A stretch of DNA of 64,000 nucleotides from Bacteroidales bacterium (GTDB lineage Bacteria > Bacteroidota > Bacteroidia > Bacteroidales > VadinHA17): positions 35,000 through 98,999 of the forward strand of contig JAWOIF010000157.1 in NCBI GenBank assembly GCA_046484805.1. The letters run 5' to 3'. The translations under genes were made by a program, and so were the position numbers. Numbering within the stretch: the first letter of the stretch is position 1; every line of letters begins with the position of its first letter. This document shows, piece by piece, positions 5,721 to 37,452 of this stretch. The notes below the pieces were generated by a model. That model was given only the letters and a program-made list of their open reading frames with translations. It was not told where the DNA came from and did no database searches.

Positions 5721-8700
5721 ATGATAACGAAGATGAAGCCTGATTTTTTATTCGAGACCAGCTGGGAAATTTGCAATAAGGTAGGTGGTATCCATACGGT
5801 CATATCAACAAAAGCACTGAATATTGTTAATGAATTAGGGAATAATTATATACTGATAGGCCCGGATGTGTGGCGTGAAGATACCAAAAACCCTGAATTC
5901 ATACCCGATGAGACTCTGTTTGCGGCCTGGAAAGGATTTGCTGCGGGTGAAGGTCTCAGAGTCAAGACGGGGAGATGGAACATAGCAGGAAAGCCAATTG
6001 TCATGCTGCTGGACTTCACTCCTTATTTTGGTCAGCAGGACGAGATATTTGCCAGGTTCTGGGAGACATACAAGCTTGACAGCATCTCGGGTCAGTGGGA
6101 TTATGTTGAGCCGGCACTTTTCGGATATGCTGCCGGCAAACTAATTGCCAGCTTTACCACCTTCTACAGGGAGAGTCAGGCAGTAGTCGCTCAGTTTCAT
6201 GAATGGATGACGGGTACAGGAGTATTGTATCTCAAAGAAACTGCTCCATGGGTGGCAACCTCATTCACAACCCATGCAACCGTGCTGGGTCGCTCTATAG
6301 CAGGGAATAACCGTCCCCTTTATGGTCAGATGAAGCAATATGTGCCTTCACAGGTAGCTCTTGAATTCAATGTTACGGCAAAACAATCACTGGAAAAATT
6401 GAGCGCAGTTGAGGCAGACGTATTTACTACTGTAAGCGGTATAACTTCCAAAGAGTGTGCTCACTTCCTTGGGAAGGAGGTTAACTATGTTACTCCAAAC
6501 GGTTTTGAAGATTCATTTGTTCCGCCGGCTTCCGAATTCGGAAAGAAGCGTGAAGCAGCAAGAAACAAACTTCTTGATGTTGCTGAGGCGGTCTTTGGTT
6601 ACACACCATCTTCAGATGCCTTACTGCTTGCACTAAGCGGCAGGTATGAATTCAGGAACAAGGGAGTGGATATTTTTATTGATTCACTGGGCTGTCTTAA
6701 CCGCGACACTAAACCGGGAAAGGAGATAATCGCTTTTATCCTTATGCCGGCTTACCATTCCGGTCCGCGTGCCGATATCCAGTCAGCCCTCAATGACAGT
6801 AATTCGAAGAATACCGGAGATAAGTATCTTACACACGGACTGCATTATCCTGGCACCGACCCGGTTTTGTCAAAGATAGCAGTCAATAAACTGACCAATG
6901 AATCAGGTTCAAGGGTGAAAATAATCTTTGTGCCCTCATATCTTAACGGTGATGACGGAGTATTCAATATACCATACTTTGATCTGCTTATTGGATTCGA
7001 CCTTACTTCTTTCCCATCCTACTATGAACCATGGGGCTACACTCCATTGGAAAGCCTGATGTTCTCGATTCCTACAATTACCACTACCCTGGCCGGATTC
7101 GGACTATGGGTGAAGACCCATTTTGAAAACCCCGGCAAAGGAATTGCAGTCATTGATAGAACCGATGAAAATGAACAGGAAGTAATAAAGGAGATGTGTA
7201 AATTCATTTCTGAATTTACCCGTCTCTCATCTGACAAGGTAGAAGAGGCAAGGGGAAAAGCCCATGAGATATCAAGGATTGCGATGTGGGATACTCTTGT
7301 TACTCATTATTATGATGCTTATTCCTATGCTCTTGTTTCCTCTGAGGTCAGAAGATCAGAACCGAGAGAATTTGCCATTGCACTTGCCGGTCAGGCTGGC
7401 GAAAGCAGGAAACCTCACCAGGTTCCGGTGTGGAAAGATATCTTCGTTCAGTCTGATGTGCCGGAAAGAATGACATGCCTTAAAGAGATAGCCTGCAACC
7501 TTTGGTGGTCGTGGAATAATGAAGCTGAAAATATGTTCCAGAGGATGGCCCCGTCACTATGGGAAGCCTGTGGTCATAATCCAAGGCTCCTCATTGAAAA
7601 GATAGATTACAAGAGGTTGAAGGTGCTCTCGGAGGATGAGGATTTCATCACGGAAATGGACAGGATATACGCGATTTTCAGGGAGTATATGGACAGACCC
7701 GATGATGCTTCCAAACCAAGGGTCGCATATTTTAGTATGGAATTCGGTATACACCATTGCCTGAAGATCTATTCAGGGGGACTTGGTATTCTGGCAGGCG
7801 ATTATCTTAAGGAAGCAAGCGACTCAAATGTGCCGCTGGTAGCAATAGGCCTTCTATACAGGTACGGGTACTTCAGGCAGAAACTTGGTCCTAAAGGAGA
7901 GCAGATCGCAATTTACGAAGCAGAGGATTTCTCACATCTTCCCCTGTGCCCGGTAAAAGATCAGGAGGATAACCATTTGTCGGTCAGCCTTGTCTGGCCG
8001 GGGAGAAACGTGCTGGCAAGGGTTTGGGAGGCAAAGATCGGAAAGGTAACGCTCTACCTGCTCGATACAGATTTTGATGAAAACAGCCACGAGGACAGAT
8101 CAGTAACCCATCATCTGTATGGTGGAGACAATGAGAACAGACTCAAACAGGAGCTGGTACTTGGTATTGGAGGAATAAGGGTTCTCAGAAAGCTGGGGAT
8201 AACACCCGATATCTATCATAGTAATGAGGGACATTCAGCTTTCATTGGAATGGAGAGGCTGTTCCATCTTATCGGAGATAATCACCTCAGGTATGAAGAG
8301 GCGGTTGAAGTTGTGAGGTCCTCTACTCTTTTCACAACACATACTCCGGTGCCGGCAGGACATGATGCATTTGATGAAGATCTGTTAAGGAGATATATAT
8401 CTCATTATCATTCCCGACTGAAGATATCATGGGATGAACTTATGGCGCTCGGGAGGTGTTCGTCAGAACCCGAACGAAAGTTCAATATGAGTTATCTGGC
8501 AACAAGGCTTTCACAGCAAGTCAATGGTGTAAGTAAGCTTCACGGAGAGGTTTCAAGGGCAATGTTCAACAAGCTCTGGCCGGGTTACCTTAAGGAAGAG
8601 CTTCATATCGGGCATGTGACCAATGGTGTTCACCATCCGACATGGTTGGCGCCACAGTGGCGTGACGTTTATGAGGAGCTTACCGGGCAGCGCTACTTTG

Positions 8701-9956
8701 ACCAGACAGACAGAAGCCTTTGGGAAAGAATATACTCGCTTGAAGACAAAAAGGTATATGATATCAGAAGAGAACTGAAATCAGCATTGTTCAAGGCAAT
8801 CAGGAGTAAGCTTCAGAGTGAAATGATCGACAAGCACGTTAGCCCGAGGAAGCTGCTGAATATAAGTACCCATCTTGATGAGAAAGTATTGACAATTGGT
8901 TTTGCCAGAAGATTCGCAACCTACAAGAGAGCTCACCTTCTGTTTACTGATCTTGACAGGCTTGATGCCCTTGTTAATAATCCCGATCAGCCCGTACAGT
9001 TCATATATGCAGGTAAGGCTCACCCTCAGGACGGAGGTGGACAGGGTCTTATACAACGCATAAATGAAATATCGCAGATGCCGAGGTTTGCAGGAAAGAT
9101 TCTTTTCCTTGAGAATTACAACATGGAGCTTGCAAAGCTATTGGTCAGAGGTGTTGACATATGGCTTAATACTCCTACGAGGCCACTGGAGGCTTCGGGT
9201 ACAAGCGGCGAGAAGGCGGTTATGAATGGAACCCTCCATTTCAGCGTACTTGACGGATGGTGGGTGGAAGGCTTCAGGGCATTTGCGGGCTGGGCCCTGC
9301 CTCAGAAGAGAATTTTCACCAATCAAATCCTTCAGGATGACATAGATGCTGAAACTATTTACAATATGCTTACATATGAAATTGTGCCTGCATACTATTC
9401 ATTTAATGAAAATAATATTCCGGTGGAGTGGATCAGCCTGGTAAAAAACACCATGGTAAGGATTGCTCCGGAGTTTACGATGAAGAGGATGATTGATGAC
9501 TATATTGAAAAATACTATCAGCCACTCTGGAACCGTAGTCGTCGCATAATTTCAGATGAGTTTGCCCTTGCAAGGGAGATGGCCTCCTGGAAGGAGGAAA
9601 TGGTAAGAGAATGGGATAATATTGATATTCTATCCTATAATATCGAGAAACCTGATGGAAATGTTTACAGGTCGGGCAGAAAATACAGGGCAGAGGTTGT
9701 TCTCGATGTTAATACTATTCAGCAGGAGTTTGTCGGGGTCGAGTATGTTCTGACAAGGATGAAGACGACAGGGGAGTATGAATTTGTTGCCAGTGGAGAA
9801 TTCAAACCAGTGGGCTTCAAGAAAGGTAAGTGCTATTTCAGGGCAGAGCTGACACCTGAGAAGGCTGGATCATTCTTCTATGGAATCAGGATATTCCCCA
9901 AGCATAAGATGCTTCCCCACAGACAGGATTTTCCCCTGCTGAGATGGATTGTTTAA
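5721..9956 (+). CDS. Fusion protein: GT3 (eukaryote-like) glycogen synthase N-terminal half + GT35 alpha-glucan phosphorylase C-terminal half
   Basis: One uninterrupted 1,411-aa ORF. The N-half has LFETSWEICNKVGGIHTVISTKA and YEPWGYTPLES (GT3 signatures). The C-half has LWWSWNNEA (DUF3417-type N-terminus), GGLGILAGDYLK and EASGTSGEKAVMNG (PLP-lysine motif of phosphorylases). Confidence 0.85.
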   Translation: MITKMKPDFLFETSWEICNKVGGIHTVISTKALNIVNELGNNYILIGPDVWREDTKNPEFIPDETLFAAWKGFAAGEGLRVKTGRWNIAGKPIVMLLDFTPYFGQQDEIFARFWETYKLDSISGQWDYVEPALFGYAAGKLIASFTTFYRESQAVVAQFHEWMTGTGVLYLKETAPWVATSFTTHATVLGRSIAGNNRPLYGQMKQYVPSQVALEFNVTAKQSLEKLSAVEADVFTTVSGITSKECAHFLGKEVNYVTPNGFEDSFVPPASEFGKKREAARNKLLDVAEAVFGYTPSSDALLLALSGRYEFRNKGVDIFIDSLGCLNRDTKPGKEIIAFILMPAYHSGPRADIQSALNDSNSKNTGDKYLTHGLHYPGTDPVLSKIAVNKLTNESGSRVKIIFVPSYLNGDDGVFNIPYFDLLIGFDLTSFPSYYEPWGYTPLESLMFSIPTITTTLAGFGLWVKTHFENPGKGIAVIDRTDENEQEVIKEMCKFISEFTRLSSDKVEEARGKAHEISRIAMWDTLVTHYYDAYSYALVSSEVRRSEPREFAIALAGQAGESRKPHQVPVWKDIFVQSDVPERMTCLKEIACNLWWSWNNEAENMFQRMAPSLWEACGHNPRLLIEKIDYKRLKVLSEDEDFITEMDRIYAIFREYMDRPDDASKPRVAYFSMEFGIHHCLKIYSGGLGILAGDYLKEASDSNVPLVAIGLLYRYGYFRQKLGPKGEQIAIYEAEDFSHLPLCPVKDQEDNHLSVSLVWPGRNVLARVWEAKIGKVTLYLLDTDFDENSHEDRSVTHHLYGGDNENRLKQELVLGIGGIRVLRKLGITPDIYHSNEGHSAFIGMERLFHLIGDNHLRYEEAVEVVRSSTLFTTHTPVPAGHDAFDEDLLRRYISHYHSRLKISWDELMALGRCSSEPERKFNMSYLATRLSQQVNGVSKLHGEVSRAMFNKLWPGYLKEELHIGHVTNGVHHPTWLAPQWRDVYEELTGQRYFDQTDRSLWERIYSLEDKKVYDIRRELKSALFKAIRSKLQSEMIDKHVSPRKLLNISTHLDEKVLTIGFARRFATYKRAHLLFTDLDRLDALVNNPDQPVQFIYAGKAHPQDGGGQGLIQRINEISQMPRFAGKILFLENYNMELAKLLVRGVDIWLNTPTRPLEASGTSGEKAVMNGTLHFSVLDGWWVEGFRAFAGWALPQKRIFTNQILQDDIDAETIYNMLTYEIVPAYYSFNENNIPVEWISLVKNTMVRIAPEFTMKRMIDDYIEKYYQPLWNRSRRIISDEFALAREMASWKEEMVREWDNIDILSYNIEKPDGNVYRSGRKYRAEVVLDVNTIQQEFVGVEYVLTRMKTTGEYEFVASGEFKPVGFKKGKCYFRAELTPEKAGSFFYGIRIFPKHKMLPHRQDFPLLRWIV

Positions 9957-10026: not shown

Positions 10027-12066
10027 TTAAAAACTGTTTAGGTCTCTCACGCTTCTTAATGGTATTCTTCTGAATACCAGCCCAGTACGTGCCGGAAGGT
10101 ATATTTTGACATAGAATGGGGCGTTTACCGGGTACCTCCCGCCGGGATGTTCGGCTGCATATATAATGCTTCTGTCGATACGGTTAAAGCCACCGAACCG
10201 TTCGTCGTCGGTATCGAGTACTATTTCAAAGCGTCCTTTTGCCCTGATGCCGTAATCTGACCATGACTTGTCAGGGTGAAAGTTAAATGCAAAAAGAAGA
10301 TCACCCCTCATAAATGAAATTACCTTATCACTGTCATTTTCTGTTGCGGTTTCGATATTAAGTGTTTCGAGGAACCTGAATTTCTGCTGAAGACTTAGCA
10401 TTTCCTCATCGAATAGCCTGAGATAATCAAATTTAAGATCAGGATTATCACTCAGGGACCATTGTCTGCGGGCATGTTTATAGCTCCAGTTGTTACCCTC
10501 CCTGGGGAAATCTATCCATTCGGGATGACCAAACTCGTTACCCATGAAATTAAGGTATCCTCCACCTGCGGTTCCGAAAGTTATAAGTCTGATCATCTTA
10601 TGGAGGGCCATTCCCCTGTCAACCACAAGACTTACACTGCTCTTATTCATTGATGTGTACATCTCTGCGTCGATCATCCTGAAAATAAGAGTTTTATCCC
10701 CCACCAGCGCCTGGTCGTGAGATTCGCAATAACTGATAACCTTTTCTTCCGGTCTCTTTTGCTTAAGTTCATAGAAGAGGCGTCCGGTGCTCCACTGTTC
10801 ATCCGGTACATCCTTGACCAGTTTTATCCAGTAGTCGGGTACGCCCATAGCCATTCTGTAATCGAAGCCATAACCCAAAGTTTCCACAGGCGCAGCAATT
10901 CCGGGCATCCCGCTCATTTCTTCAGCAATTGTAACTGCTGAAGGTTTAACTGTATGAATCAGCTTGTTCGCCAATGCCAGGTAGATAATTGCATCTTCAT
11001 CCTGCCCGCCGTCATAATACTCTTCGTACGAAAGAAAATCCTTGTTGAGCCCGTGATCATAATATATCATGCTGGTTACCCCGTCAAACCTGAAACCGTC
11101 AAAGCGGTATTCATTCAGCCACCAGGCACAGTTTGAAAGCAGGAAATGCAGAACATGGTCCTTTCCATAATCGAAGCAGAGGGAATCCCATGCCTTGTGT
11201 ACCCTTCTCTCTCCGGCATGAAAGTAGAGACCCGGGTTTCCGTCAACGAGAGCAAGACCTTCATTTACATTACTTACCGAGTGGGAGTGGATTATATCCA
11301 TAATAACTCTCAGTCCATATCCATGGGCTGTATCAACCAGTTCCTTAAGCTCTTCCGGTGTTCCGAATCTGGAAGAGACAGCAAAGAAGCTTGAGACATG
11401 ATATCCGAACGAGCCGTAGAAGGGATGCTCCTGTATAGCCATCAGCTGCAGCGTGTTGTATCCTAACCTCGCTATCCTCGGCAGCACACTTTTTGTAAAC
11501 TGCCTGAAGGTTCCTGTATTTTCTTCTTCGCTGGCCATTCCTACGTGTGCTTCGTAGATAAGAGGCGGCCCATCAGGGGGTTTGAAACGGGTGTTTTTCC
11601 ATTGGTAGGCAACTGCCGGTGACCACACCTGTGCCGAGAATATCTTTGTGTCGTCGTCCTGGAAAAGTTTTGAGGCGTAAGAAGGTATTCTCTCTCCGTT
11701 GCCTCCCTTCCAGTTGACGCTTAGCTTGTAAAGATCTCCATGCTTCAGAGCCTCCTCAGGCAGAATAATCTCCCAGTTGCCAGGTTCTCTGGTTTGAGAA
11801 AGGTGGTATTCCTCTGATTCCTTCCAGTCACTGAAGGTTCCTATAAGGTATACTGATGTGGCATTGGGGGCATATTCTCTGAAAACCCAACCGGAATCTG
11901 TCCTGTGAAGACCGTACCAGAGGTACCCCAATGCAAACTCTGTCAGATCCTTTCCCCCGGTAAGGGTTATTTCGCGTGACAAGAATTTACGATAGCGGTT
12001 TTCAATGACGCCGGAATAAGGGCGAAGCCATGAATCTACTGAAAAGAAAGGTTCGGAACCGGCCAT
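10027..12066 (-). CDS. glgB: 1,4-alpha-glucan branching enzyme, eukaryote-like GH13 subfamily
   Basis: 679 aa. GH13 conserved regions are present: VIMDIIHSH, DGFRFDGVTSM, TIAEEMSG, YCESHDQ. It is convergent with the glycogen operon. Confidence 0.9.
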   Translation of the reverse strand: MAGSEPFFSVDSWLRPYSGVIENRYRKFLSREITLTGGKDLTEFALGYLWYGLHRTDSGWVFREYAPNATSVYLIGTFSDWKESEEYHLSQTREPGNWEIILPEEALKHGDLYKLSVNWKGGNGERIPSYASKLFQDDDTKIFSAQVWSPAVAYQWKNTRFKPPDGPPLIYEAHVGMASEEENTGTFRQFTKSVLPRIARLGYNTLQLMAIQEHPFYGSFGYHVSSFFAVSSRFGTPEELKELVDTAHGYGLRVIMDIIHSHSVSNVNEGLALVDGNPGLYFHAGERRVHKAWDSLCFDYGKDHVLHFLLSNCAWWLNEYRFDGFRFDGVTSMIYYDHGLNKDFLSYEEYYDGGQDEDAIIYLALANKLIHTVKPSAVTIAEEMSGMPGIAAPVETLGYGFDYRMAMGVPDYWIKLVKDVPDEQWSTGRLFYELKQKRPEEKVISYCESHDQALVGDKTLIFRMIDAEMYTSMNKSSVSLVVDRGMALHKMIRLITFGTAGGGYLNFMGNEFGHPEWIDFPREGNNWSYKHARRQWSLSDNPDLKFDYLRLFDEEMLSLQQKFRFLETLNIETATENDSDKVISFMRGDLLFAFNFHPDKSWSDYGIRAKGRFEIVLDTDDERFGGFNRIDRSIIYAAEHPGGRYPVNAPFYVKIYLPARTGLVFRRIPLRSVRDLNSF

Positions 12067-28928: not shown

Positions 28929-29798
28929 ATGATCATTATGAAAACAAGGATTTTAATAGCAATGTCAGTAGTTGCACTTGCAATAGCAGCAGTCTCGTGC
29001 CAGAAGAGCGACCTTATTACCGAAAAGGATCTCGATATGGCTGAAGATAATGTTATTGCTGAAGCAATATTCGATGATATTTTCAACTCTGTCGATATAG
29101 CTTCATGGTTGCTGGAAGGAGCAATGAAGAGCGATTTTTCAAAAGGAATGGCGCTCTCTTCTGATTCCTGTCCGGTAGTTACGGTAAATTTCCCTGATGG
29201 TACGACCTGGCCGAAGGTAATTACTATAGATTACGGTGACGGCTGTACAATAAATGAAGTAACCAGGAAAGGAAAGATAATTATTGAGATCACTGCACGT
29301 CGTCATGTAACAGGTTCAATGAGAACAGTTACATTCGATGGTTACTATTTCAACGATATTGCTGTTGAGGGAACCAAGAGCATTAAGAACCTGGGCCCCA
29401 ACAGTAGCGAGAACATTGTGATTGAAGTAAAGCTTGAGGGAGGAAAAATGACTCTTCCCGACGGCAAAACAATAGAGAGAGAGGTTAACCGTCAGAGGGA
29501 ATGGATAGCCGGGCTTAATACGCCATTTTATATATGGGATGACGAATGCCTGATTACTGGTACTACCTCAGGTAAAAACATAAATGATGTAACCTACACA
29601 ACCACTATTTCGACTCCGCTGCTCTGGAAGAGGGTTTGCAGATTCATTGTGTCGGGTGTTATATTAATTGAGCGGGAAGGCTTTGATCCGGTTGAACTCG
29701 ATTACGGCGATGGGGAATGTGATGCAAAGGCAGTCTTGCGCCGGGGAGATGAGGAGAAAGAGATTCTAATCAGAGTAAGGCATAAGAGGATGTTGTAG
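28929..29798 (+). CDS. Hypothetical lipoprotein
   Basis: 289 aa. Signal plus lipobox (IAAVSC). No family recognised. It is followed by a strong terminator. Confidence 0.6.
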   Translation: MIIMKTRILIAMSVVALAIAAVSCQKSDLITEKDLDMAEDNVIAEAIFDDIFNSVDIASWLLEGAMKSDFSKGMALSSDSCPVVTVNFPDGTTWPKVITIDYGDGCTINEVTRKGKIIIEITARRHVTGSMRTVTFDGYYFNDIAVEGTKSIKNLGPNSSENIVIEVKLEGGKMTLPDGKTIEREVNRQREWIAGLNTPFYIWDDECLITGTTSGKNINDVTYTTTISTPLLWKRVCRFIVSGVILIEREGFDPVELDYGDGECDAKAVLRRGDEEKEILIRVRHKRML

Positions 29799-30452: not shown

Positions 30453-30923
30453 CTATAATTCAACCTCTAAATTATCTATAACCTCCTTTTTACCATTACA
30501 ATATTTTACAAAAACAAACTCTAAATTCTCATATTTCAACTTAGTATATCCAACCACATTATCCGTTTTATCGAGTTCAGCTACTTTAACGCTATCTAAC
30601 AGAGAAGAATTACTTTGAAATGCTACGAAAACAAACGTCTTTTCAGATTTATCTTTATACTTTACCTCAATATAATTCATTGAGGTATAATTGTTATAGT
30701 TAAAATTGTATTTAGCAATTTTGTATTCGGAAGCAACTTCACCAGTTAATGTAGAACAGACAATGTTTTTGTATAGAGATTCTGCTATATTATCCCAGTC
30801 ATCATAAGCTTCTCCATCTTCCCATTTTATTTTTGCTTTTTCAAGCCAAGGAATTATTGCCAATAATGCGCCTCTGAATATTACTACTAAATCGGTTACA
30901 GATGTTTTCAATTTGTTGCTCAT
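30453..30923 (-). CDS. Putative cognate immunity protein of the RHS toxin (unknown family)
   Basis: The ATG at 30923 lies 2 nt after the RHS stop codon (30926-30928). The product is 156 aa (MSNKLKTSVTDLVVIFRGALLAIIPWLEK...) with no signal peptide. The longer track ORF start (31040) would overlap the toxin gene and was rejected. Confidence 0.6.
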   Translation of the reverse strand: MSNKLKTSVTDLVVIFRGALLAIIPWLEKAKIKWEDGEAYDDWDNIAESLYKNIVCSTLTGEVASEYKIAKYNFNYNNYTSMNYIEVKYKDKSEKTFVFVAFQSNSSLLDSVKVAELDKTDNVVGYTKLKYENLEFVFVKYCNGKKEVIDNLEVEL

Positions 30924-30925
30924 AA

Positions 30926-33900
30926 TTAATTTCCCCATATTCGTTTTATTAGATTTAGTTGCTCTTGTGTCGGTGCCACTTTCGGTCCAAATCCTTGACC
31001 TGGTATTACTGACTTCGCCCTTTCCCTTGTTATATCCCAAATCACCTGTCCTTGTTGATTAGTAATAAGAACTCTACCTTCTACACCACCTTTAACAACC
31101 GAATTAGCGGGACCAGTAGCGTTCTTTAGCAATTGGCCACTTCTACCTCCTTTAATAACGATATCTGAGTGAGTTGCAAGATTGCTTACCCCCTTACTGG
31201 CAACTACTGTAGTTTTAGCACCAAAATTTATCGTAGAAGCCTTTCCTAAAGTAAAAACTTCCCCAGCACATACCAAAAACCAACCAGCTGCATTCAAGTA
31301 GTCACCAGCATAAATTGCATCCATTGTTCTTGCACTTGAACTTAAACCAGGCCAATTGTAAATGCTGTACCAAGCTTGCCCCCTTCCATTTGTGGCCATT
31401 ACTGCATCCTTTGCGCGCCAGCGAATTGGTTTTTCAGGATTGACTACTACCTCAGGGATAACGAATGCATTTTCCCAATCAGAATTCTCGAAAGAAGCAG
31501 AATTGGTGCCATAATCAATTTCCGGGTTATCGCCGGTAGTACTTTCAGGGATTGAGGAAGATCCTCCTCCATTGAAAATTCTTTTCAAGAAATCCTTCAG
31601 CCATCCTCGCTTATAACCTGTTGGATCAATATATTTTAACGGGTTATTCAGGCAGTAAGTATACCTGTTGAAGTTCTGGACATTTGAGGGTGACTGTATG
31701 AACGGGTCAGGACTCAGGAACATAGCAAGCAACGGATCATAAACTCTGCCATTCATATTAATTATTCCGAAATCATCGAGATGCTGGTGTCCTGTGAAAC
31801 CTCTGTCAAACCGAAATTCCGTGTTAAAGGTGTCAAAATCCCAGTCATCTGTGGACCTCCTGCGACCCCAGGGATCAAAGCTCAACCACTCTTCGGCAGT
31901 CCCTGAGCTGTTTGTAATAACATCAAATGAGCCCAGGATGTCGCTATGAATATAGAAGATGGAATCTCCCCCTGTCTTAGACTCCAGAATAGCAGATAGT
32001 CCTGATGGGGTATATATGTAGTAAAGCTCCCTTGTACCCTTTACCGTGTCTACTTCCTTTTCATAACTACCGAGTGCGAAGTATTTAGTAAGTCTGGTCA
32101 CCGAGTTCTCTTCCTGAATAGTCTTTATTCTTCTCTGATCCGGTCCGTAGGTTATGGAAAGGTTCTTGTTAAGGATTCCATCCGAGACTGAAACTGTGTT
32201 TATCTTATTGAACTTTGTATATGTAATGTTCTGAGTGGGGAGGTTCTCAATAAGTGGGGTTCTGTCAGTAATGGAGTCAAGGCGGTGCACATAGGTTGGA
32301 TTATAGCAAAATGTTCCGACATCGCGCTTCGATATTATATTGCCTAAGCCTCCTGAATCATATGTTAACGACAGAGTGTCAGTCCCTATAACTGCGGTAA
32401 TTAACCTGTCCTGGCTGTCATAAGTAAAATACTCTTCGTTGTATGTGCCGGAAGAATTCAGACCTTTTCGCTTAACAATATTACCAAAGGTACTACTAAA
32501 ATCATAATCCCAGTCCTGTATTTGAATAGTTCCTTTTACTGATTCAATCTTATCAAGGTAACCATACTGATCAAAAGAGATAGTGGTATTTACCCCGTTG
32601 CCCAAATCGTAATTATCTATAATTCCGTATTGGTTCATACTATTGGCTTGCCAAATCGTAGTAAGGCTTGAAGATACTTCAAGATTAACCTGGTTCAGAT
32701 AACCATAGTTATTGTAATCATATGAAATGGTTGCAAAATTGTTAAATCCGGCAGAAGAGATGTCTCCATTTGCGAGGTAAGAGTACTGTGCAGTAAAGAT
32801 GTTTCCAGGCTCAATCCTTTCAGACTTTGATGCAACCCTGAATAAAGAGTCGTAGGTGAAGGTATGTTCAGATCCGTTGGTCGATAAAATGCTTGTAAGA
32901 TAGCTTGAGGAAGAATTGTAAGTGTATGTAATGGTATCCCCACCAAGCCTTGCAACCTTAGTTAATCTTCCAAGAGGATCATATTCCATATCAACAACAC
33001 TGCCTTCAGCATCTGTTTGCCTTATAAGCTCTCCGTATATATTGTAATCATAATCTGTTATTCCGGCATCAATATCGATCAGCTCATCCTGGAATCCATA
33101 CTGATCATAAGTGATGACGGTTGTCCCTGAGGGTGAGGTAATAGACGTTACCTTGCCGTCTGGATTATAAGCATATTGAATTGTTCCTCCTGGTTCTGTT
33201 GTCTCAACAATCAAACCGGATTCATCAATTTCCCGGGAAAAAGATCTGTTACCTTTTGTTATGGTTGTTTTCAGCGGTGTGTAAGTATAGCTGGTTGTAA
33301 CATTCTGTGGAAAAACGGTTTCTGAGGAGAGCCTGTTTTTAGAATCATAATTGTATTCAACATACTGTGTTCTGCTTTCACCATCAAAATAAGGGGAATA
33401 GGCTTTATTAATCCTGCCATTAACGTCATACTCTTTGTCTGTAATCAGGAATGTTCCGTCAAAGCCCTGAGTCTTGGCTCTGACTTCTCTGCCAAGAATA
33501 TCATAGAAAGTATATGTAACAGGATTGCCGGATGAACTGGTTTTAACATAATAGAGATCATCAGCATTTTCCACTCCACATGACCAACCCAGATTTATAT
33601 ATTCTGTATTGCCTGATGGATACTCTACCGTGGTTATATTACCAAAAGCATCATAAGAGAATTTTGTTGAGAGGCCATTATGATCAACACTGCTTTTGAG
33701 CCCTCCTGAAGATTGGAAGTAAGAATATGTTGTTGTCTTTCCAAGTGGATTGGTATTTGAGACCATGAATCTCTTCCTTGGAGATTCCCAACTCATTTCA
33801 GTAGTCTTTGACGTTGTACCATCACTTATCTGAATAGAGGTAGAATTACCATAGTTATCATAAGTATACGTAACCCTCAGAGTATCTGTTGTACCGAATA

Positions 33901-36730
33901 ATCTCGTTTCTTTTTTTAGTTTTCCGGAAAGATAGTATTCATACAGGTTGTTTCTGACAATGGTATCACCCCCTCGGGTTGTCATAATTATTTCATTATG
34001 AGGCATTCCATGACCTGTAAAGTTCGAATATGCTTCTACGACACTCACTGTTATATTATCATTCAAATCCATGAATTTGGTTACTGTGGATGTTATGTTC
34101 CCAAGAGTGTCTATTGTTGCTGACACCTGATTTTTTACGTCGTTACTTATATCATAGTCTGTAGAGAGACTACGATATGCAAAAAATCTTTTCCCATCAA
34201 ACAAAGAATCGATTGATTGTTCATATTCTTGCCTTTGCACGAGTTCGCCACCAAAGAAAATTCTTGTTTGTGAAAGGTAGGTATTGAAAAACAGGGTGTC
34301 ATAGGAGAGTTCTATTATTGTGCTGTCTGTGGTTATATTGTCGCAGATGAAGTTTTTCGTAAAACCAAGCGACCCTTTGCCCCGAAGGTGTTCCTTTAGA
34401 TTGGAGTAATAATATGTTTTTTCACCTAATAAGACTTCTGTATTATCATTATATATCTTTACATTATGAACTACTTTTTTAGGGTAAATAGCTCTTCTTA
34501 CATATGAATGAAATGTTTCAGATTCTGTAAGATAGATACTGGAATTAGTAAGCAGGCCATATTGGATATGATGAGTCAGGTTCAGCCCATTGGTGATAGC
34601 AACAATCAAACCCCTTTTGTCTCCCGGGTAAAACTCCAAAACTTTGTCCCCTCCATTATTCATCATAATAAGAAGGTCTGTTGTTCCATCAAAGTTATTG
34701 TCCAGCAGATTCGAGTATCTCGGTTTTTGAGCCCCCGAATAAATGGATTCGGTTTTGAACTGAAGGCCGGTACTTATATACATGTCTTCTGTAAGAATGT
34801 CGGTATAGGTCATAGCCTCTCCCGGAATACCGGTTGCTTCTTTAATATATAATGATTTAAATATATCTGTTTTACCGTCCCTGTTGAAATCATGAACGAA
34901 TAATTGAAGACTTAGCTCTTCGTAATAAGTAATGGGTTCAGGCTCGCCACCTAAAGGAGGTTCTCCGCCAACTGGCTGACCAACAAAGGAGTAAATAGAT
35001 ATTGGGCCTTGAACAGAATGGAAAGTTTCTCCGTCAGAAAAGGCAATTCTGGTTCGTATTGAGTCCGGTATCGAATACTTGTCAACTAACAACAAATCTG
35101 TCTTCCCATCACCGTTAAAATCACCACTATAGTATTCATCATTATAAGAATTATAATAATAACTGACGAGGATTCTAAAGTCCTCATCATATTTAACATA
35201 TTCATATATTTTGAATACGCCGTTATTCTCAGTAAGAATATCCGACTTTCCATTACCATTAAAATCAATCACAGAAACATTTCTTACACCAGAAAAGGAT
35301 AAAAAGTGCTGACCCTGAATGTTAATACCTTGTATGGTGCCTGATGAATAATAGCCTCCTGAGTAATTGACAAACATTCTATCTATATCTCCATCCCCGT
35401 CAAAATCTCCTGGAATACAGTATCCGACATTGTTTGCCGAAGTGTTATATCTGTAATTTCTGGCACTCACATTAACCAACTCCACTCCATCCAGCTCATA
35501 ATACTTGAAGTCCTCATAATAAGTAGATCGGTATTGCCAATATGTATCATCATCTCCATCAGCGTCATAGTCGAAAACCACAATGCCAATGAAGGCTGAG
35601 TTCAGGACGCCGGAGTCAGTGTTTACATAATCATCTATATCCTCATTATAGAGGTATAATTTCCATACATCTGATGTGCTATATATGGTTTTCTTTGCCA
35701 TTGTAATATAATCAGGTTTGCCATCACCATTAAAGTCACCTGTGAAGATGCGTTTATCGCTTGTTGTAACGGACCCGGCATCTACAAGCCTGGTCGATGG
35801 CAAACTATTAGTCCCCCACTGGAACCTGGTATTATTGAATGAAGATCCATCACCGGCAGATTCACTAATCTCAACTAATTTTGTGTAAAAGTTGGTATTA
35901 TAATCGAAGTCATACCTTCTGACAAGAGTATCATCGCAAATAACTTCTATCTTGTTTATAAGCAGCTTCTGCGGAGTCTCACCGCCAGGGAAGAATACCT
36001 GGTTCTTGTTTTGTCTCGTTTCATATGAGAATGCAATTTCATTATACGGAATCAAATTCTCTGAATTATTTCCTGTATAGTGGATGCTTTCAAGAAAGGA
36101 CTGACCGATAGAATAGTTGTATCCATAATTGAAAGAAATATAATTGCCATGAACATCTGTAATCATTGTAACATTCCAAACAATTGCCCGGGAGTTGTCA
36201 TCCACTACCTTTGAGTTTGACGCATTGCCATACTCAATGACAGTACCATCTTTCATTATTACCTCGAACCATGCGGGACCACTTGTTCCATGTGATATAA
36301 TGGTTGCAAAGGTTTCTGATTCAGTCTTATATGTTGAGTTGTCTCCACCATAAGCACCTGTTGCAGAAATCAGATAATTACCATCAAGTGCAAAAAGATC
36401 ATCGCTATCCATATCAATTGCCTTAACAACTCCATTCATGTAATAGGGCGTAACAACCCTGTAAATGGAAGTAAGCCCTTTAAGATGAAAGTCCTTTCCA
36501 AATAAACCTTCTCCCGAGCAGCTATTGTAATCTATACTTAGCTGGGGGCTCATTCCTCCTGTTCCCGGGGAGGCAAAAACCGGTATTGTATAAGTTGATG
36601 CACCACTTAAAGACACGGAAAAGACTCCTTGTGCAGAGCCGACAATCCTTGTCGTATCAATGACAGAGGGAAAAGCAGAAATATTGAAAGATAATATAAT
36701 GAATATTGCTACGGATATTTGTTTTTTCAT
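30926..36730 (-). CDS. RHS/YD-repeat polymorphic toxin: signal peptide + SpvB-N domain + FG-GAP/VCBS repeats + YD-repeat shell + RHS core + 228-aa C-terminal toxin module
   Basis: 1,934 aa. Signal peptide: MKKQISVAIFIILSFNISAF. SpvB-like: STYTIPVFASPGTGGMSPQLSIDYNS..GLFGKDFHLKGLTSIYR. FG-GAP-type motifs: GDFNGDGKPD, GDFDGDGDID, DFNGNGKSD, GDFNGDGKTD, HDFNRDGKTD. There are many YD repeats (YTYDNYGN, FSYDAFGN, YAYNPDGK, MEYDPLGR...). RHS core: YIHSDILGS...FDPWGRRR...GRVYDPLLAMFLSPDP...NNPLKYIDPTGY. Confidence 0.9.
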   Translation of the reverse strand: MKKQISVAIFIILSFNISAFPSVIDTTRIVGSAQGVFSVSLSGASTYTIPVFASPGTGGMSPQLSIDYNSCSGEGLFGKDFHLKGLTSIYRVVTPYYMNGVVKAIDMDSDDLFALDGNYLISATGAYGGDNSTYKTESETFATIISHGTSGPAWFEVIMKDGTVIEYGNASNSKVVDDNSRAIVWNVTMITDVHGNYISFNYGYNYSIGQSFLESIHYTGNNSENLIPYNEIAFSYETRQNKNQVFFPGGETPQKLLINKIEVICDDTLVRRYDFDYNTNFYTKLVEISESAGDGSSFNNTRFQWGTNSLPSTRLVDAGSVTTSDKRIFTGDFNGDGKPDYITMAKKTIYSTSDVWKLYLYNEDIDDYVNTDSGVLNSAFIGIVVFDYDADGDDDTYWQYRSTYYEDFKYYELDGVELVNVSARNYRYNTSANNVGYCIPGDFDGDGDIDRMFVNYSGGYYSSGTIQGINIQGQHFLSFSGVRNVSVIDFNGNGKSDILTENNGVFKIYEYVKYDEDFRILVSYYYNSYNDEYYSGDFNGDGKTDLLLVDKYSIPDSIRTRIAFSDGETFHSVQGPISIYSFVGQPVGGEPPLGGEPEPITYYEELSLQLFVHDFNRDGKTDIFKSLYIKEATGIPGEAMTYTDILTEDMYISTGLQFKTESIYSGAQKPRYSNLLDNNFDGTTDLLIMMNNGGDKVLEFYPGDKRGLIVAITNGLNLTHHIQYGLLTNSSIYLTESETFHSYVRRAIYPKKVVHNVKIYNDNTEVLLGEKTYYYSNLKEHLRGKGSLGFTKNFICDNITTDSTIIELSYDTLFFNTYLSQTRIFFGGELVQRQEYEQSIDSLFDGKRFFAYRSLSTDYDISNDVKNQVSATIDTLGNITSTVTKFMDLNDNITVSVVEAYSNFTGHGMPHNEIIMTTRGGDTIVRNNLYEYYLSGKLKKETRLFGTTDTLRVTYTYDNYGNSTSIQISDGTTSKTTEMSWESPRKRFMVSNTNPLGKTTTYSYFQSSGGLKSSVDHNGLSTKFSYDAFGNITTVEYPSGNTEYINLGWSCGVENADDLYYVKTSSSGNPVTYTFYDILGREVRAKTQGFDGTFLITDKEYDVNGRINKAYSPYFDGESRTQYVEYNYDSKNRLSSETVFPQNVTTSYTYTPLKTTITKGNRSFSREIDESGLIVETTEPGGTIQYAYNPDGKVTSITSPSGTTVITYDQYGFQDELIDIDAGITDYDYNIYGELIRQTDAEGSVVDMEYDPLGRLTKVARLGGDTITYTYNSSSSYLTSILSTNGSEHTFTYDSLFRVASKSERIEPGNIFTAQYSYLANGDISSAGFNNFATISYDYNNYGYLNQVNLEVSSSLTTIWQANSMNQYGIIDNYDLGNGVNTTISFDQYGYLDKIESVKGTIQIQDWDYDFSSTFGNIVKRKGLNSSGTYNEEYFTYDSQDRLITAVIGTDTLSLTYDSGGLGNIISKRDVGTFCYNPTYVHRLDSITDRTPLIENLPTQNITYTKFNKINTVSVSDGILNKNLSITYGPDQRRIKTIQEENSVTRLTKYFALGSYEKEVDTVKGTRELYYIYTPSGLSAILESKTGGDSIFYIHSDILGSFDVITNSSGTAEEWLSFDPWGRRRSTDDWDFDTFNTEFRFDRGFTGHQHLDDFGIINMNGRVYDPLLAMFLSPDPFIQSPSNVQNFNRYTYCLNNPLKYIDPTGYKRGWLKDFLKRIFNGGGSSSIPESTTGDNPEIDYGTNSASFENSDWENAFVIPEVVVNPEKPIRWRAKDAVMATNGRGQAWYSIYNWPGLSSSARTMDAIYAGDYLNAAGWFLVCAGEVFTLGKASTINFGAKTTVVASKGVSNLATHSDIVIKGGRSGQLLKNATGPANSVVKGGVEGRVLITNQQGQVIWDITRERAKSVIPGQGFGPKVAPTQEQLNLIKRIWGN

Positions 36731-36775
36731 AACAGGCTTTTTTATAATGACTTATTGTAGCATCATCTTATACAT

Positions 36776-37225
36776 TTATCTATACCCCGATTTAATAATC
36801 TTCCAGTCATATACTTCTTTTTCCATTCGAATGCGGAGAACATAAACCCCATCCCTCAATCCTGTAAGGTCGACCTCCATTTCATTGGAGTTGATGGCTT
36901 TTGTTAAGAGAAGATTCCCATTTAAGTTGTATACAAAATACTTAGACCTAAATCCTACTTCAAACCCTGAGAGTTCAATTTTTATTTTGCCCCTGGTGGG
37001 ATTAGGAAAGACTTTCATGAAGAATTCCTGTTCAACCTTTATTGGTTTAAATTCTTCAGGCGTCGTAACCGGAAATTCAAGAGGCATCAATTGCTCAATA
37101 ACAATTTCCCTGCAAGTCCTGTTGCCATTTGCATCATAGGAATAAAATTGTCCTCTTCCCTGTCCTGCTAAATGTAAACAAGAAGACAGGAGGAAAATTA
37201 AGAAAATTAAGGTTCCTTGTTTCAT
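36776..37225 (-). CDS. Small secreted protein: signal/lipobox + one YD repeat + T9SS type-A C-terminal sorting domain
   Basis: I prefer the ATG at 37225 over the TTG at 37273. 149 aa: MKQGTLIFLIFLLSSC (signal/lipobox), FYSYDANGNRT (YD motif), then KVFPNPTRGKIKIEL...VYNLNGNLL...GVYVLRI...KIIK (Por secretion tail pattern). It ends 45 bp upstream of the RHS start. Confidence 0.7.
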   Translation of the reverse strand: MKQGTLIFLIFLLSSCLHLAGQGRGQFYSYDANGNRTCREIVIEQLMPLEFPVTTPEEFKPIKVEQEFFMKVFPNPTRGKIKIELSGFEVGFRSKYFVYNLNGNLLLTKAINSNEMEVDLTGLRDGVYVLRIRMEKEVYDWKIIKSGYR

Positions 37226-37415: not shown

Positions 37416-37452
37416 TAAAAAGAAGAGAGGCTGCCCTTTTGAGACAGCCTCT
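37416..37452 (-). terminator. Rho-independent terminator of clpX (right, inverted copy of the islet-bracketing hairpin)
   Basis: The minus strand reads AGAGGCTGTCTCAAAAGGGCAGCCTCT followed by CTTCTTTTT. It lies 45 nt downstream of the clpX stop. Confidence 0.7.

What the first reader, a model, noticed from the sequence alone, without database searches (positions are those of the whole stretch)
36776..37225. Stand-alone protein of signal peptide + single YD repeat + T9SS C-terminal domain, encoded directly upstream of the RHS toxin: possible trans-acting T9SS sorting adaptor
Seen in sequence. The 149-aa ORF has a signal/lipobox (MKQGTLIFLIFLLSSC) and exactly one canonical YD motif (FYSYDANGNRT). 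A short linker follows, then a type-A Por-secretion-tail-like domain (KVFPNPTRGKIKIEL ... VYNLNGNLL ... GVYVLRI ... KIIK). The 1,934-aa RHS gene starts 45 bp downstream on the same strand. Established knowledge. T9SS cargo need a C-terminal CTD. In RHS/Tc-type cocoons the C-terminus is the encapsulated toxin, released by the DPxG(L/Y) aspartyl autoprotease. An RHS toxin therefore cannot easily carry its own functional CTD. Inference. The small protein could dock onto the RHS shell through its YD strand and provide the T9SS signal in trans, a split-CTD export route for an RHS toxin that has a Sec signal but no visible secretion partner. I am not aware of such an adaptor having been described. 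A less exciting alternative is a remnant of an older RHS gene that picked up a CTD.
Basis: partly seen in the sequence, partly recalled or inferred. Interest (0 to 1): 0.75.

Follow-up and report, generated by a model that had tools for sequence, protein, structure and literature searches.

The report
T9SS-tagged YD-hairpin partner of RHS toxins
A small secreted protein, made only of one RHS-type beta-hairpin, a flexible tether and a type IX secretion tag, is encoded just in front of a large RHS toxin gene. It belongs to a large conserved family that nearly always sits there, so it probably links these toxins to the Bacteroidota export machinery, though no test run here shows that it does.

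Summary
A 149-aa ORF lies on the minus strand (37225..36776), 45 bp upstream of a 1,934-aa SpvB/FG-GAP/RHS toxin. It consists of a signal peptide, one YD-type beta-hairpin, a ~27-aa disordered linker and a type-A T9SS C-terminal domain (CTD). The CTD passes the HMM cut-offs and matches solved CTD folds.

It is not a gene remnant. It belongs to a family with roughly 1,000 or more 90%-identity clusters (1,152 hits at E<=1e-10, some possibly CTD-only). In 248 of 252 retrieved proteins the architecture is identical and the motif [YF]xYDxxGNR is essentially invariant at the mature N-terminus.

Linkage holds in both directions. 15 of 18 relatives have a SpvB-RHS gene immediately downstream, and two more have one a gene away. 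Of 58 low-GC metagenomic SpvB-RHS loci, 44 have the small gene adjacent upstream, against 0 of 26 high-GC loci. None of 35 complete partner RHS proteins has its own CTD. Two named hosts that could be checked are T9SS-positive.

Two papers have remarked in passing that T9SS-cargo genes lie next to rhs genes (P. gingivalis 2019, Apibacter 2021). Neither described the hairpin, the family or a trans-CTD mechanism.

The parts
37426..37452 (-). Terminator-like hairpin between clpX and the small ORF. It marks the start of a separate transcription unit.
   Evidence: 11-bp stem with 6 GC pairs and a T-rich tail, on the minus strand. No terminator-like site was found in the 45-bp gap between the small ORF and the RHS gene.
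36776..37225 (-). Small ORF, 149 aa plus stop: a T9SS type-A CTD protein with a single YD hairpin
   Evidence: ORF and translation. (CTD HMMs above cut-off). (100% identical to an NCBI protein of a Bacteroidales MAG). (structure model).
37163..37225 (-). Signal peptide, aa 1-21. Cleavage is probably before Gln22.
   Evidence: Hydrophobic helix at aa 3-17 in the model. Q22 is invariant in alignment A1. A Q lies within 12 aa upstream of the motif in 242/252 relatives. A lipobox-like pattern occurs in only 8/142 relatives. No signal-peptide predictor was available.
37103..37150 (-). Single YD-type beta-hairpin, aa 26-41 (QFYSYDANGNRTCREI), at the mature N-terminus
   Evidence: Strands 26-30 and 36-41 with pLDDT 80-94. 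The motif is invariant in the family. The family profile's hairpin positions match YD repeats of the RHS and a teneurin-like shell.
37022..37102 (-). Flexible linker, aa 42-68
   Evidence: pLDDT 58-76 with no secondary structure. In the family the linker has a median length of 25 aa (5-95%: 21-38, up to 63). It is rich in Glu and Ser and poorly conserved.
36779..37021 (-). T9SS type-A C-terminal sorting domain, aa 69-149
   Evidence: PF18962 42.4 bits and TIGR04183 42.8 bits. Seven-strand sandwich with pLDDT above 90. Foldseek matches 8glk_D (NucA CTD) and 8qb1 (mirolase CTD). A C-terminal K[IV][IV]K motif is present in 242/252 relatives.
36731..36775 (-). 45-bp intergenic spacer between the small ORF and the RHS gene
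   Evidence: No terminator-like site was found here. In relatives the gap is typically -4 to 60 bp.
30926..36730 (-). RHS polymorphic toxin, 1,934 aa. It is like a TcB-TcC fusion: signal peptide, SpvB, FG-GAP propeller, RHS shell, Rhs core ending in IDPTGY (aa 1619-1705), and a C-terminal toxin of unknown family (aa 1706-1934; nt 30929-31615).
   Evidence: The RHS has no CTD. The C-terminal 229 aa have no NCBIfam match.
30453..30923 (-). Candidate immunity gene, 156 aa. Its ATG lies 2 nt after the RHS stop codon.
   Evidence: ORF. (no family match, as is usual for immunity proteins). GC content is 0.30 against 0.44 for the window. The assignment rests on position only.

Best explanation
The 149-aa protein is a dedicated accessory partner of the SpvB-type RHS toxin encoded immediately downstream. 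It probably links that toxin to the type IX secretion system.

Shown here:
- It is a genuine Sec/T9SS substrate by sequence and fold.
- Its passenger is reduced to one N-terminal YD beta-hairpin on a flexible, acidic ~25-aa tether.
- This architecture is conserved in roughly 1,000 or more protein clusters.
- The gene is co-oriented with, and apparently co-transcribed with, an RHS gene whose product has a signal-peptide-like N-terminus but no CTD.
- The pairing is seen only in low-GC (Bacteroidota-type) loci.

Inferred:
- In the periplasm the lone hairpin cannot fold on its own. It adds as an extra strand pair to an edge of the RHS beta-sheet, as the TcB and TcC halves of a Tc cocoon join.
- The CTD then engages PorV/SprA.
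- As a result the RHS toxin is either carried across the outer membrane with the small protein, or is held at the cell surface by it after the CTD is processed or retained.
- There the toxin acts on neighbouring cells, and the producer is protected by the downstream immunity protein.
For: CTD identity:
- HMMs above cut-off.
- Fold match to the CTD in a substrate-bound translocon structure.
- The family profile hits solved CTDs.

Family and constraint:
- The top 150 of a profile search of 1.84 billion representatives are mostly 135-190-aa full-length matches.
- 1,152 clusters at E<=1e-10.
- The motif is 100% conserved at Y, D, G and N, while linker length varies.

Linkage from the small gene to RHS:
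- 4 of 6 first homologues have a SpvB-RHS gene 4-25 bp downstream. One has it two genes away and one contig is truncated.
- 8 of 8 family members from reference genomes.

Linkage from RHS to the small gene:
- 44 adjacent, plus 2 within 3 kb, of 58 low-GC SpvB loci. 0 of 26 high-GC loci.

Other support:
- All 16 aligned partner RHS proteins start with a hydrophobic, signal-peptide-like N-terminus. 0 of 35 complete ones carry a CTD.
- There is a terminator before the small ORF and none between it and the RHS. The pair shares low GC relative to its flanks.
- The two genes are inherited together (Mantel r 0.60, 0/2000 permutations).
- Hosts that could be checked are T9SS-positive. B. timonensis AP1 (the same assembly as L026) and Draconibacterium orientale have 5 of 5 core genes. 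Most Bacteroides species have 0-1 (PMC7073777 Supplemental Data 2).
- Independent authors reached the same loose inference for P. gingivalis and Apibacter.
Against: - No direct evidence of binding or co-export exists, either here or in the papers found.
The 1,200-aa cap could not have held a full shell in any case.
- RHS_repeat/YD HMMs do not score the hairpin, so 'YD repeat' rests on a 10-residue motif plus weak profile matches.
- The Mantel correlation falls to 0.11 among distant pairs. This shows co-inheritance, not co-evolution.
- 11 of 58 low-GC SpvB-RHS loci lack the gene, so it is not universally required.
- In L001 the gene lies after the RHS, not before it.
- GC content was used as a stand-in for taxonomy.
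- From my own knowledge: a folded TcB-TcC-type cocoon with its propeller is about as wide as, or wider than, the SprA lumen. Passage of the folded complex is therefore physically questionable.
- Whether this MAG has a T9SS is unknown. No T9SS gene and no other CTD protein lies in the window.
Confidence: 0.45

Rival explanations
1. Surface display without co-export. The small protein crosses the T9SS alone. It ends up as a short YD-hairpin peptide, either tethered to the cell surface after PorU processing or held by a PorV-like barrel through an uncleaved CTD, as PorU and PorZ are. The RHS protein reaches the outside by another route (vesicles or lysis) and docks there. Alternatively, the peptide marks self cells.
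For: The evidence on anatomy and linkage is the same as for the main explanation. The variable-length acidic linker looks like a tether. This reading avoids the size problem of moving a folded cocoon through SprA.
Against: No alternative export route for the RHS is evident. No test separates this reading from co-export. A 20-residue hairpin alone is a weak anchor for a ~220-kDa protein.
Confidence: 0.18
2. Periplasmic assembly factor or edge cap. The hairpin transiently caps or nucleates the growing RHS beta-sheet during folding in the periplasm. The CTD only serves to dispose of the factor afterwards.
For: The gene is tightly paired with and lies 5' of the RHS gene. A lone hairpin is suited to beta-edge binding.
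Against: High-GC SpvB-RHS proteins fold without such a factor (0 of 26). Strong conservation of all CTD motifs argues that export itself is the selected function. Nothing else about a chaperone is visible in a 20-residue element.
Confidence: 0.1
3. Independent or regulatory T9SS cargo. The small protein acts on its own, for example as a signal to T9SS regulation in the way PorA, a small CTD protein of P. gingivalis, affects PorXY-SigP. It merely travels with RHS cassettes.
For: A small CTD protein with a regulatory role is on record (PMC7712824, title and abstract seen). The cassette looks horizontally acquired (low GC), so hitch-hiking of genes is conceivable.
Against: The element conserved outside the CTD is precisely an RHS-type hairpin. 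The association is with one toxin class only. It persists across Bacteroidales, Flavobacteriales, Chitinophagales and Marinilabiliales-type genomes at 25-40% identity.
Confidence: 0.07
4. Decayed fragment of an older RHS gene that happened to acquire a CTD.
For: It has only one YD motif, and RHS-repeat HMMs do not hit it.
Against: The family has about 1,000 clusters of constant length and architecture. The motif is invariant, and signal peptides and CTDs are intact, at 25-40% pairwise identity.
Confidence: 0.01

Closest known systems
T9SS type-A CTD cargo proteins (Por_Secre_tail, TIGR04183/PF18962), e.g. NucA, RgpB, mirolase
   Same: An N-terminal Sec signal and a ~77-aa C-terminal beta-sandwich with the PNP, GxY and K-x-x-K motifs. 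The HMMs score above cut-off, and the fold superposes on CTDs seen bound to PorV/SprA.
   Different: The passenger is not an enzyme or adhesin. It is a ~20-residue hairpin plus a disordered tether. The CTD makes up more than half of the mature protein.
Published notes of T9SS-cargo genes next to rhs genes: P. gingivalis PGN_1817/PGN_1818 (Moradali et al. 2019, PMC6775972) and Apibacter SpvB/TcdB-type rhs genes (Steele and Moran 2021, PMC8125069)
   Same: The same gene arrangement and the same loose inference that these RHS proteins are associated with the T9SS.
   Different: Those papers give one or two sentences each. They do not define a family, mention a YD hairpin, survey co-occurrence or propose a trans-CTD mechanism. 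I could not obtain PGN_1817 or the Apibacter sequences, so their membership in this family is presumed and not shown.
TANFOR polymorphic toxins of Bacteroidetes (Jana, Salomon and Bosis 2020, PMC7073777)
   Same: These are Sec-signal, CTD-less polymorphic toxins whose neighbourhoods are enriched in CTD-bearing genes. They are hypothesised to be T9SS substrates.
   Different: The toxin scaffold differs (TANFOR, not SpvB-RHS). The neighbours are large SprB/PKD/Fn3 proteins, not a minimal hairpin-CTD protein.
Secretion adaptors of other polymorphic toxins (T6SS Eag/DUF1795, DUF4123 and DUF2169 with VgrG/PAAR; small partner proteins of T7SS LXG toxins). From my own knowledge.
   Same: A small protein encoded just upstream of the toxin connects it to a secretion machine. 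The gene pair is conserved while the toxin tip varies.
   Different: No sequence or fold relationship. The machine is different. Here the adaptor would itself carry the complete secretion signal.
TcB-TcC cocoon assembly in Tc toxins. From my own knowledge.
   Same: The partner RHS has the TcB-TcC domain order: SpvB, FG-GAP propeller, RHS, Rhs core. In Tc toxins two polypeptides join by continuing one RHS beta-sheet. This is the kind of contact proposed for the hairpin.
   Different: The contribution here is a single hairpin, not half a shell. No TcA-like gene was found in the window.
Cognate partners of T9SS type-B CTD cargo (SprB with SprF/PorP-like proteins). From my own knowledge.
   Same: A cargo-specific accessory protein is encoded next to the T9SS-dependent cargo.
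   Different: There the cargo carries the CTD and the partner is an outer-membrane protein. Here the cargo lacks a CTD and the partner carries it.

Membership tests
T9SS type-A CTD cargo (TIGR04183 / PF18962) | CTD profile scores above the curated cut-off | tested here: met
   PF18962 42.4 bits (cut-off 27). TIGR04183 42.8 bits (cut-off 23).
T9SS type-A CTD cargo (TIGR04183 / PF18962) | Domain lies at the extreme C-terminus and has the 7-strand beta-sandwich fold of solved CTDs | tested here: met
   aa 69-145 of 149, pLDDT above 90. Foldseek 8glk_D TM 0.89 (target-normalised), rmsd 1.8 A; also 8qb1.
T9SS type-A CTD cargo (TIGR04183 / PF18962) | N-terminal Sec signal peptide | tested here: inconclusive
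   Hydrophobic helix at aa 3-17 and a conserved Gln after it. No signal-peptide predictor was available. SPI versus SPII cleavage is unresolved for this particular protein (LSSC at 13-16).
T9SS type-A CTD cargo (TIGR04183 / PF18962) | Host genome encodes a T9SS (GldK/L/M/N, SprA, PorV) | not testable with these tools
   No T9SS gene in the 64-kb window. For relatives, B. timonensis AP1 and D. orientale have 5/5 core genes in PMC7073777 Supplemental Data 2.
T9SS type-A CTD cargo (TIGR04183 / PF18962) | T9SS-dependent export and CTD processing | not testable with these tools
   Needs secretome or proteomic experiments.
RHS / YD-repeat proteins (PF05593, TIGR01643) | Repeat profile hit | tested here: not met
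   No hit at E<=1 for the small protein. There are only weak matches of the family's hairpin profile to YD repeats.
RHS / YD-repeat proteins (PF05593, TIGR01643) | Many tandem repeats forming a shell | tested here: not met
   One hairpin only. 122 of 142 relatives have exactly one motif. The second match in the others appears to fall in the CTD's own YDxxG strand (position judged from example sequences, not tallied).
RHS / YD-repeat proteins (PF05593, TIGR01643) | YxYDxxG(R/N) core motif | tested here: met
   FYSYDANGNR is present. The motif is invariant in the family.
   The window protein fits L-S-S-C, but only 8/142 relatives have any lipobox-like pattern. Gln is conserved instead.
TcB-TcC-type RHS toxin (the downstream partner) | SpvB N-terminal domain, FG-GAP propeller, RHS repeats, Rhs-associated core ending in DPxG, variable C-terminal toxin followed by an immunity gene | tested here: met
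   SpvB 48.5 bits, FG-GAP_3 41.2, RHS_repeat 83.6, TIGR03696 61.8 bits at aa 1619-1705...IDPTGY. A 156-aa ORF starts 2 nt after the stop codon. Toxin and immunity activities were not tested.
Trans-acting secretion adaptor of a polymorphic toxin | Encoded next to the toxin and conserved as a pair across taxa | tested here: met
Trans-acting secretion adaptor of a polymorphic toxin | Binds the toxin and is required for its secretion | not testable with these tools
Experiments are needed.

The most novel reading that the evidence does not exclude
The T9SS can export, or surface-mount, a large CTD-less protein by a hitch-hiker route. A 15-kDa adaptor supplies the whole sorting domain in trans and grips its ~220-kDa RHS cargo with a single YD hairpin that continues the cargo's own beta-sheet. 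This would be the first trans-acting CTD described for the T9SS. It would make the T9SS a delivery route for RHS toxins in interbacterial antagonism across Bacteroidota, including gut Bacteroides such as B. timonensis and oral P. gingivalis.
Probability: 0.3. Interest if true: 0.85.

Novelty: new variant of a known kind. Interest (0 to 1): 0.65.

Why it matters
All described T9SS substrates carry their own C-terminal sorting domain. RHS toxins cannot easily do so, because their C-terminus is the encapsulated toxin.

How the abundant Sec-signal, SpvB-type RHS toxins of Bacteroidota leave the cell is unknown. A conserved, minimal hairpin-tether-CTD partner gives that question a concrete, testable answer.

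If confirmed, it would define a new targeting mode for the T9SS. It would assign the T9SS a role in contact-dependent or secreted antagonism in gut, oral and environmental Bacteroidota. It would also offer a very small module for attaching heterologous cargo to the T9SS.

Even if co-export is wrong, this is a large, unnamed and tightly RHS-linked protein family. At present it is annotated only as 'T9SS type A sorting domain-containing protein'.

Tried and rejected
1. Multimer-style modelling. I built chimeras of the mature small protein, a GS linker and RHS residues 22-1041, for the window and five orthologous pairs. The 1,200-aa cap would also have left an artificial open sheet edge, so a positive result would have been ambiguous.

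2. The search for related loci with SpvB N-terminal alignments failed twice for lack of a conserved stretch. I replaced it with a degenerate DNA pattern for the SpvB motif YNSQGGNG.

3. Long top hits of the profile search (P0009, P0012, P0146) were checked as possible RHS-CTD fusions. They are SprB- or Ig-repeat proteins with repeated CTD-like domains and are irrelevant.

4. 'Long' family members (175-310 aa) were checked for extra domains. They are mis-called starts or have longer linkers.

5. Membership of P. gingivalis PGN_1817 in the family could not be established. No sequence was accessible, and the only other paper that mentions it merely lists it.

6. A possible contradiction was considered: family members occur in Bacteroides, a genus whose model species lack a T9SS. 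It was resolved. B. timonensis AP1 has all five core T9SS genes, whereas B. thetaiotaomicron, B. uniformis and B. stercoris have 0-1.

7. The DUF3244 neighbour had no sequence match in the PDB. The fibre-like neighbours, the toxin tip and the immunity candidate had no family match or only weak ones.

8. Literature searches for T9SS plus piggyback, YD repeat or SpvB, and a term search inside a 2023 T9SS effector review, found no description of a trans-acting CTD.

9. The Mantel test shows co-inheritance but not co-evolution, so I give it little weight.
Full report
**1. What is in the window**

The ORF reported at 36776-37225 is real but lies on the minus strand, with its ATG at 37225 and its stop at 36778-36776. 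Forty-five bases downstream on the same strand, a 1,934-aa ORF begins (36730..30926).

Pfam and NCBIfam place the following on the large protein:
- SpvB at aa 41-204
- FG-GAP repeats
- RHS repeats
- an Rhs-associated core at aa 1619-1705, ending in ...YIDPTGY

It has a ~229-aa C-terminal tip with no family match and no T9SS sorting domain. A 156-aa ORF starts 2 nt after its stop codon and is the expected immunity candidate.

Upstream lie clpX, clpP and tig. A strong terminator-like hairpin (37452..37426) separates clpX from the small ORF. No such site lies between the small ORF and the RHS gene.

The cassette has lower GC than its housekeeping flanks: small gene 0.37, RHS 0.39 and immunity 0.30, against 0.44-0.47. 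It therefore looks like an acquired three-gene unit. The small protein is 100% identical to an NCBI protein of a Bacteroidales MAG.

**2. Anatomy of the small protein**

The C-terminal half is a type-A T9SS sorting domain. PF18962 scores 42.4 bits (cut-off 27) and TIGR04183 scores 42.8 bits (cut-off 23).

An AlphaFold model built on a 142-sequence family alignment has mean pLDDT 86.9. It shows four parts:
- a signal helix at aa 3-17
- one beta-hairpin at aa 26-30/36-41
- a low-confidence linker at aa 42-68
- a seven-strand sandwich at aa 69-145

The best PDB fold match is the NucA CTD bound in the T9SS translocon (8glk_D), followed by the mirolase CTD. The family profile also finds CTDs of solved T9SS cargo by sequence.

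RHS-repeat and YD-repeat HMMs do not hit the small protein, so it is not an RHS-repeat protein in the family sense. The hairpin is nevertheless YD-like. The family profile's hairpin positions match three YD repeats in the neighbouring RHS. They also match, weakly, a teneurin-like YD shell in the PDB (E 0.008).

The 'lipobox' is not a family feature: only 8 of 142 relatives have one. A Gln is near-universal just before the hairpin (Q22 invariant; 242/252). This fits signal peptidase I cleavage before Gln, and the hairpin then forms the very N-terminus of the mature protein.

**3. It is a large, constrained family**

A word-indexed search found only 8 relatives. A profile search of 1.84 billion representatives returned mostly full-length 135-190-aa matches at E 1e-29 to 1e-35 among its top 150. 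A second profile search found 1,152 clusters at E<=1e-10.

Of 252 retrieved proteins of 125-320 aa, 248 have the same layout:
- The motif is [YF]-x-Y-D-x-x-G-N-R-[ITV]-x-R. Y, D, G and N are at 100%, the first R at 98% and the second R at 90%.
- The linker is poorly conserved and rich in Glu and Ser. Its median length is 25 aa, and it reaches 63 aa.
- The CTD is 77 aa and ends in K[IV][IV]K in 242 of 252.

Apparent long variants are mis-called starts or have longer linkers. A conserved hairpin and CTD joined by a variable spacer is the signature of two functional ends on a tether. This excludes a decaying remnant.

**4. Linkage to RHS, tested in both directions**

*From the small gene.* Six of the first homologues had readable contexts:
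- Four have a SpvB/FG-GAP/RHS gene starting 4-25 bp downstream.
- One has the RHS two genes upstream.
- One sits on a truncated contig whose downstream gene opens with BACON/PKD domains.

All eight family members found in reference genomes have a SpvB-RHS gene downstream. They come from Bacteroidales, Paludibacteraceae, Flavobacteriales, Chitinophaga, Xylanibacter and Draconibacterium. Seven are immediately adjacent and one has a 158-aa ORF in between. Four further members, chosen only for contig length, all have the RHS gene 5-40 bp downstream.

*From the RHS gene.* I scanned metagenomes with a degenerate DNA pattern for the SpvB motif YNSQGGNG. This gave 113 loci with a SpvB ORF, of which 84 had at least 900 nt upstream.

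| Locus GC | Loci | Small gene adjacent | Within 3 kb | Partial copy | None |
|---|---|---|---|---|---|
| below 0.5 | 58 | 44 | 2 | 1 | 11 |
| 0.5 or above | 26 | 0 | 0 | 0 | 26 |

GC content is only a proxy for Bacteroidota versus other phyla.

Further points:
- All 16 aligned partner RHS proteins begin with a hydrophobic, signal-peptide-like N-terminus.
- None of 35 3'-complete partners has a CTD of its own.
- Distance matrices of the small proteins and the RHS N-termini correlate (Mantel r 0.60, 0/2000 permutations). The correlation drops to 0.11 among distant pairs, so this shows co-inheritance and not co-evolution.

**5. T9SS in the hosts**

Family members occur in genomes labelled Bacteroides, and B. 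thetaiotaomicron and B. fragilis lack the T9SS (PMC5445135). I therefore checked a published table of T9SS core genes (PMC7073777 Supplemental Data 2):
- B. timonensis AP1, the very assembly that carries locus L026, has GldK, GldL, GldM, GldN and SprA (5 of 5). So do B. cellulosilyticus and Draconibacterium orientale.
- B. thetaiotaomicron, B. uniformis, B. stercoris and B. caecimuris have 0-1.

The one apparent contradiction thus turns into support. Whether the MAG of this window has a T9SS cannot be seen from 64 kb.

**6. Mechanism**

*Shown:* a Sec/T9SS-type protein whose only passenger is an N-terminal YD hairpin on a flexible tether. It is encoded in one unit with, and almost exclusively next to, Sec-signal, CTD-less SpvB-RHS toxins.

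*Inferred:* a lone hairpin has no hydrophobic core and most plausibly folds by adding to a beta-sheet edge. The obvious sheet is the RHS shell next door, and the TcB and TcC halves of Tc cocoons join in that way (my own knowledge). The CTD would then take the complex to PorV/SprA. Alternatively, after export it would hold the toxin at the surface.

I put 0.45 on this 'physical link between RHS and the T9SS or cell surface' reading. Within it, true co-export of the RHS gets about 0.3. Four rivals remain:
- surface display without co-export (0.18)
- a periplasmic capping or assembly factor (0.10)
- an independent or regulatory cargo such as PorA (0.07)
- a gene remnant (0.01)

The main objections are these:
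- There is no binding evidence at all.
- A folded cocoon with its propeller may not fit the SprA lumen (my own knowledge).
- 11 of 58 low-GC loci lack the gene.

**7. What is already known**

Two papers noticed the arrangement in passing:
- Moradali et al. 2019 wrote that PGN_1817, a 'T9SS-cargo protein', lies upstream of the largest Rhs gene of P. gingivalis. They suggested a mechanistic link (PMC6775972).
- Steele and Moran 2021 wrote that most Apibacter rhs genes have SpvB/TcdB N-termini and lie next to type-A sorting-domain genes. They concluded that these genes are probably T9SS-associated, and that this 'warrants further investigation' (PMC8125069).

Jana et al. 2020 made the parallel argument for TANFOR toxins (PMC7073777).

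None of these defines the family, the single YD hairpin, the two-way co-occurrence or a trans-CTD mechanism. My searches, and a term search inside a 2023 T9SS effector review, found no such description. I therefore rate this a new variant of a known kind: a T9SS cargo and toxin accessory of an undescribed type.

**8. Other recurrent neighbours**

In 27 of 58 loci with upstream sequence, the gene or genes before the small ORF belong to one family of 126-805-aa secreted proteins. They have YadA-like head repeats and a conserved C-terminal module, W[AP]D[YF]VF...HLP...LLxKxEExTLY. In L044 and L057 this gene sits between the small gene and the RHS.

Bacteroides-type loci instead carry a TPR protein and a DUF3244 beta-sandwich protein upstream.

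The window has neither, so the small-gene/RHS pair is the conserved core.

Noticed in passing
L001:1395-2525, L008:879-1979, L017:6670-7944, L015:5384-6481, L044:6966-8957, L057:8960-10996 and others (27 of 58 loci): A third recurrent gene family lies just upstream of the small gene, or between it and the RHS gene. These are secreted 126-805-aa proteins with YadA/BimA-like head repeats and a conserved C-terminal module, W[AP]D[YF]VF...HLP...LLxKxEExTLY. No Pfam or NCBIfam family passes threshold. They may be a trimeric fibre component of the same system. The family is absent from the window.
   Followed up: partly
L026:7723-9983, L027:211-2471, L030:7739-9980: In Bacteroides-type loci the operon is TPR protein (~585 aa), DUF3244 beta-sandwich protein (~126 aa), small YD-CTD protein, then RHS. 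The TPR gene also occurs in L060 and L070. The DUF3244 fold resembles a CTD: 3sd2, 4g5a and 3d33 appear among the fold matches of the small protein.
   Followed up: partly
window 30453-37225: The small-gene/RHS/immunity cassette has lower GC (0.37, 0.39 and 0.30) than the flanking housekeeping genes (0.44-0.47). It sits directly after the tig-clpP-clpX operon, which suggests a horizontally acquired island.
   Followed up: partly
N-termini of RHS partners, e.g. L015:8490-8700, L017:8462-8650, L036, L073, L083: Many partner RHS proteins carry an extra N-terminal segment between the signal peptide and SpvB. It has a recurring pattern (...Y[VT]A[RQ]xxIxLxPGFx[YF]...). The window's RHS lacks it and runs straight from the signal peptide into SpvB.
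   Followed up: no
L084:4939-6021; L023:4715-5188; L127: Variants of the small protein. L084 encodes a 365-aa form with an extra N-terminal domain before the YD-CTD part, directly upstream of its RHS. L023 has a 157-aa CTD-like protein with a degenerate motif (YTYSPRGQ) downstream of an RHS. L127 has a partial copy.
   Followed up: no
L037, L058, L085, L096, L112, L121, L136: These low-GC SpvB-RHS loci have no small YD-CTD gene in the available upstream sequence. In the four inspected (L037, L058, L085, L096) the upstream gene is a 315-487-aa secreted protein, apparently of the fibre-like type. This may be an alternative arrangement.
   Followed up: partly
window 36731-37225: The small ORF and the RHS ORF are in the same reading frame (starts 495 nt apart). 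Two stop codons and a short MYKMMLQ mini-ORF separate them. This is probably coincidental.
   Followed up: no
window 5721-9956 (+): A 1,411-aa ORF fuses a glycogen synthase domain, DUF3417 and a glucan phosphorylase domain. It lies within a glycogen-metabolism cluster that also has a debranching enzyme at 996-2933 and a branching-enzyme-like gene at 10027-12066.
   Followed up: no
window 28929-29798 (+): A 289-aa ORF with a signal/lipobox-like N-terminus (...AAVSC) and no Pfam match lies just beyond the cassette on the opposite strand.
   Followed up: no
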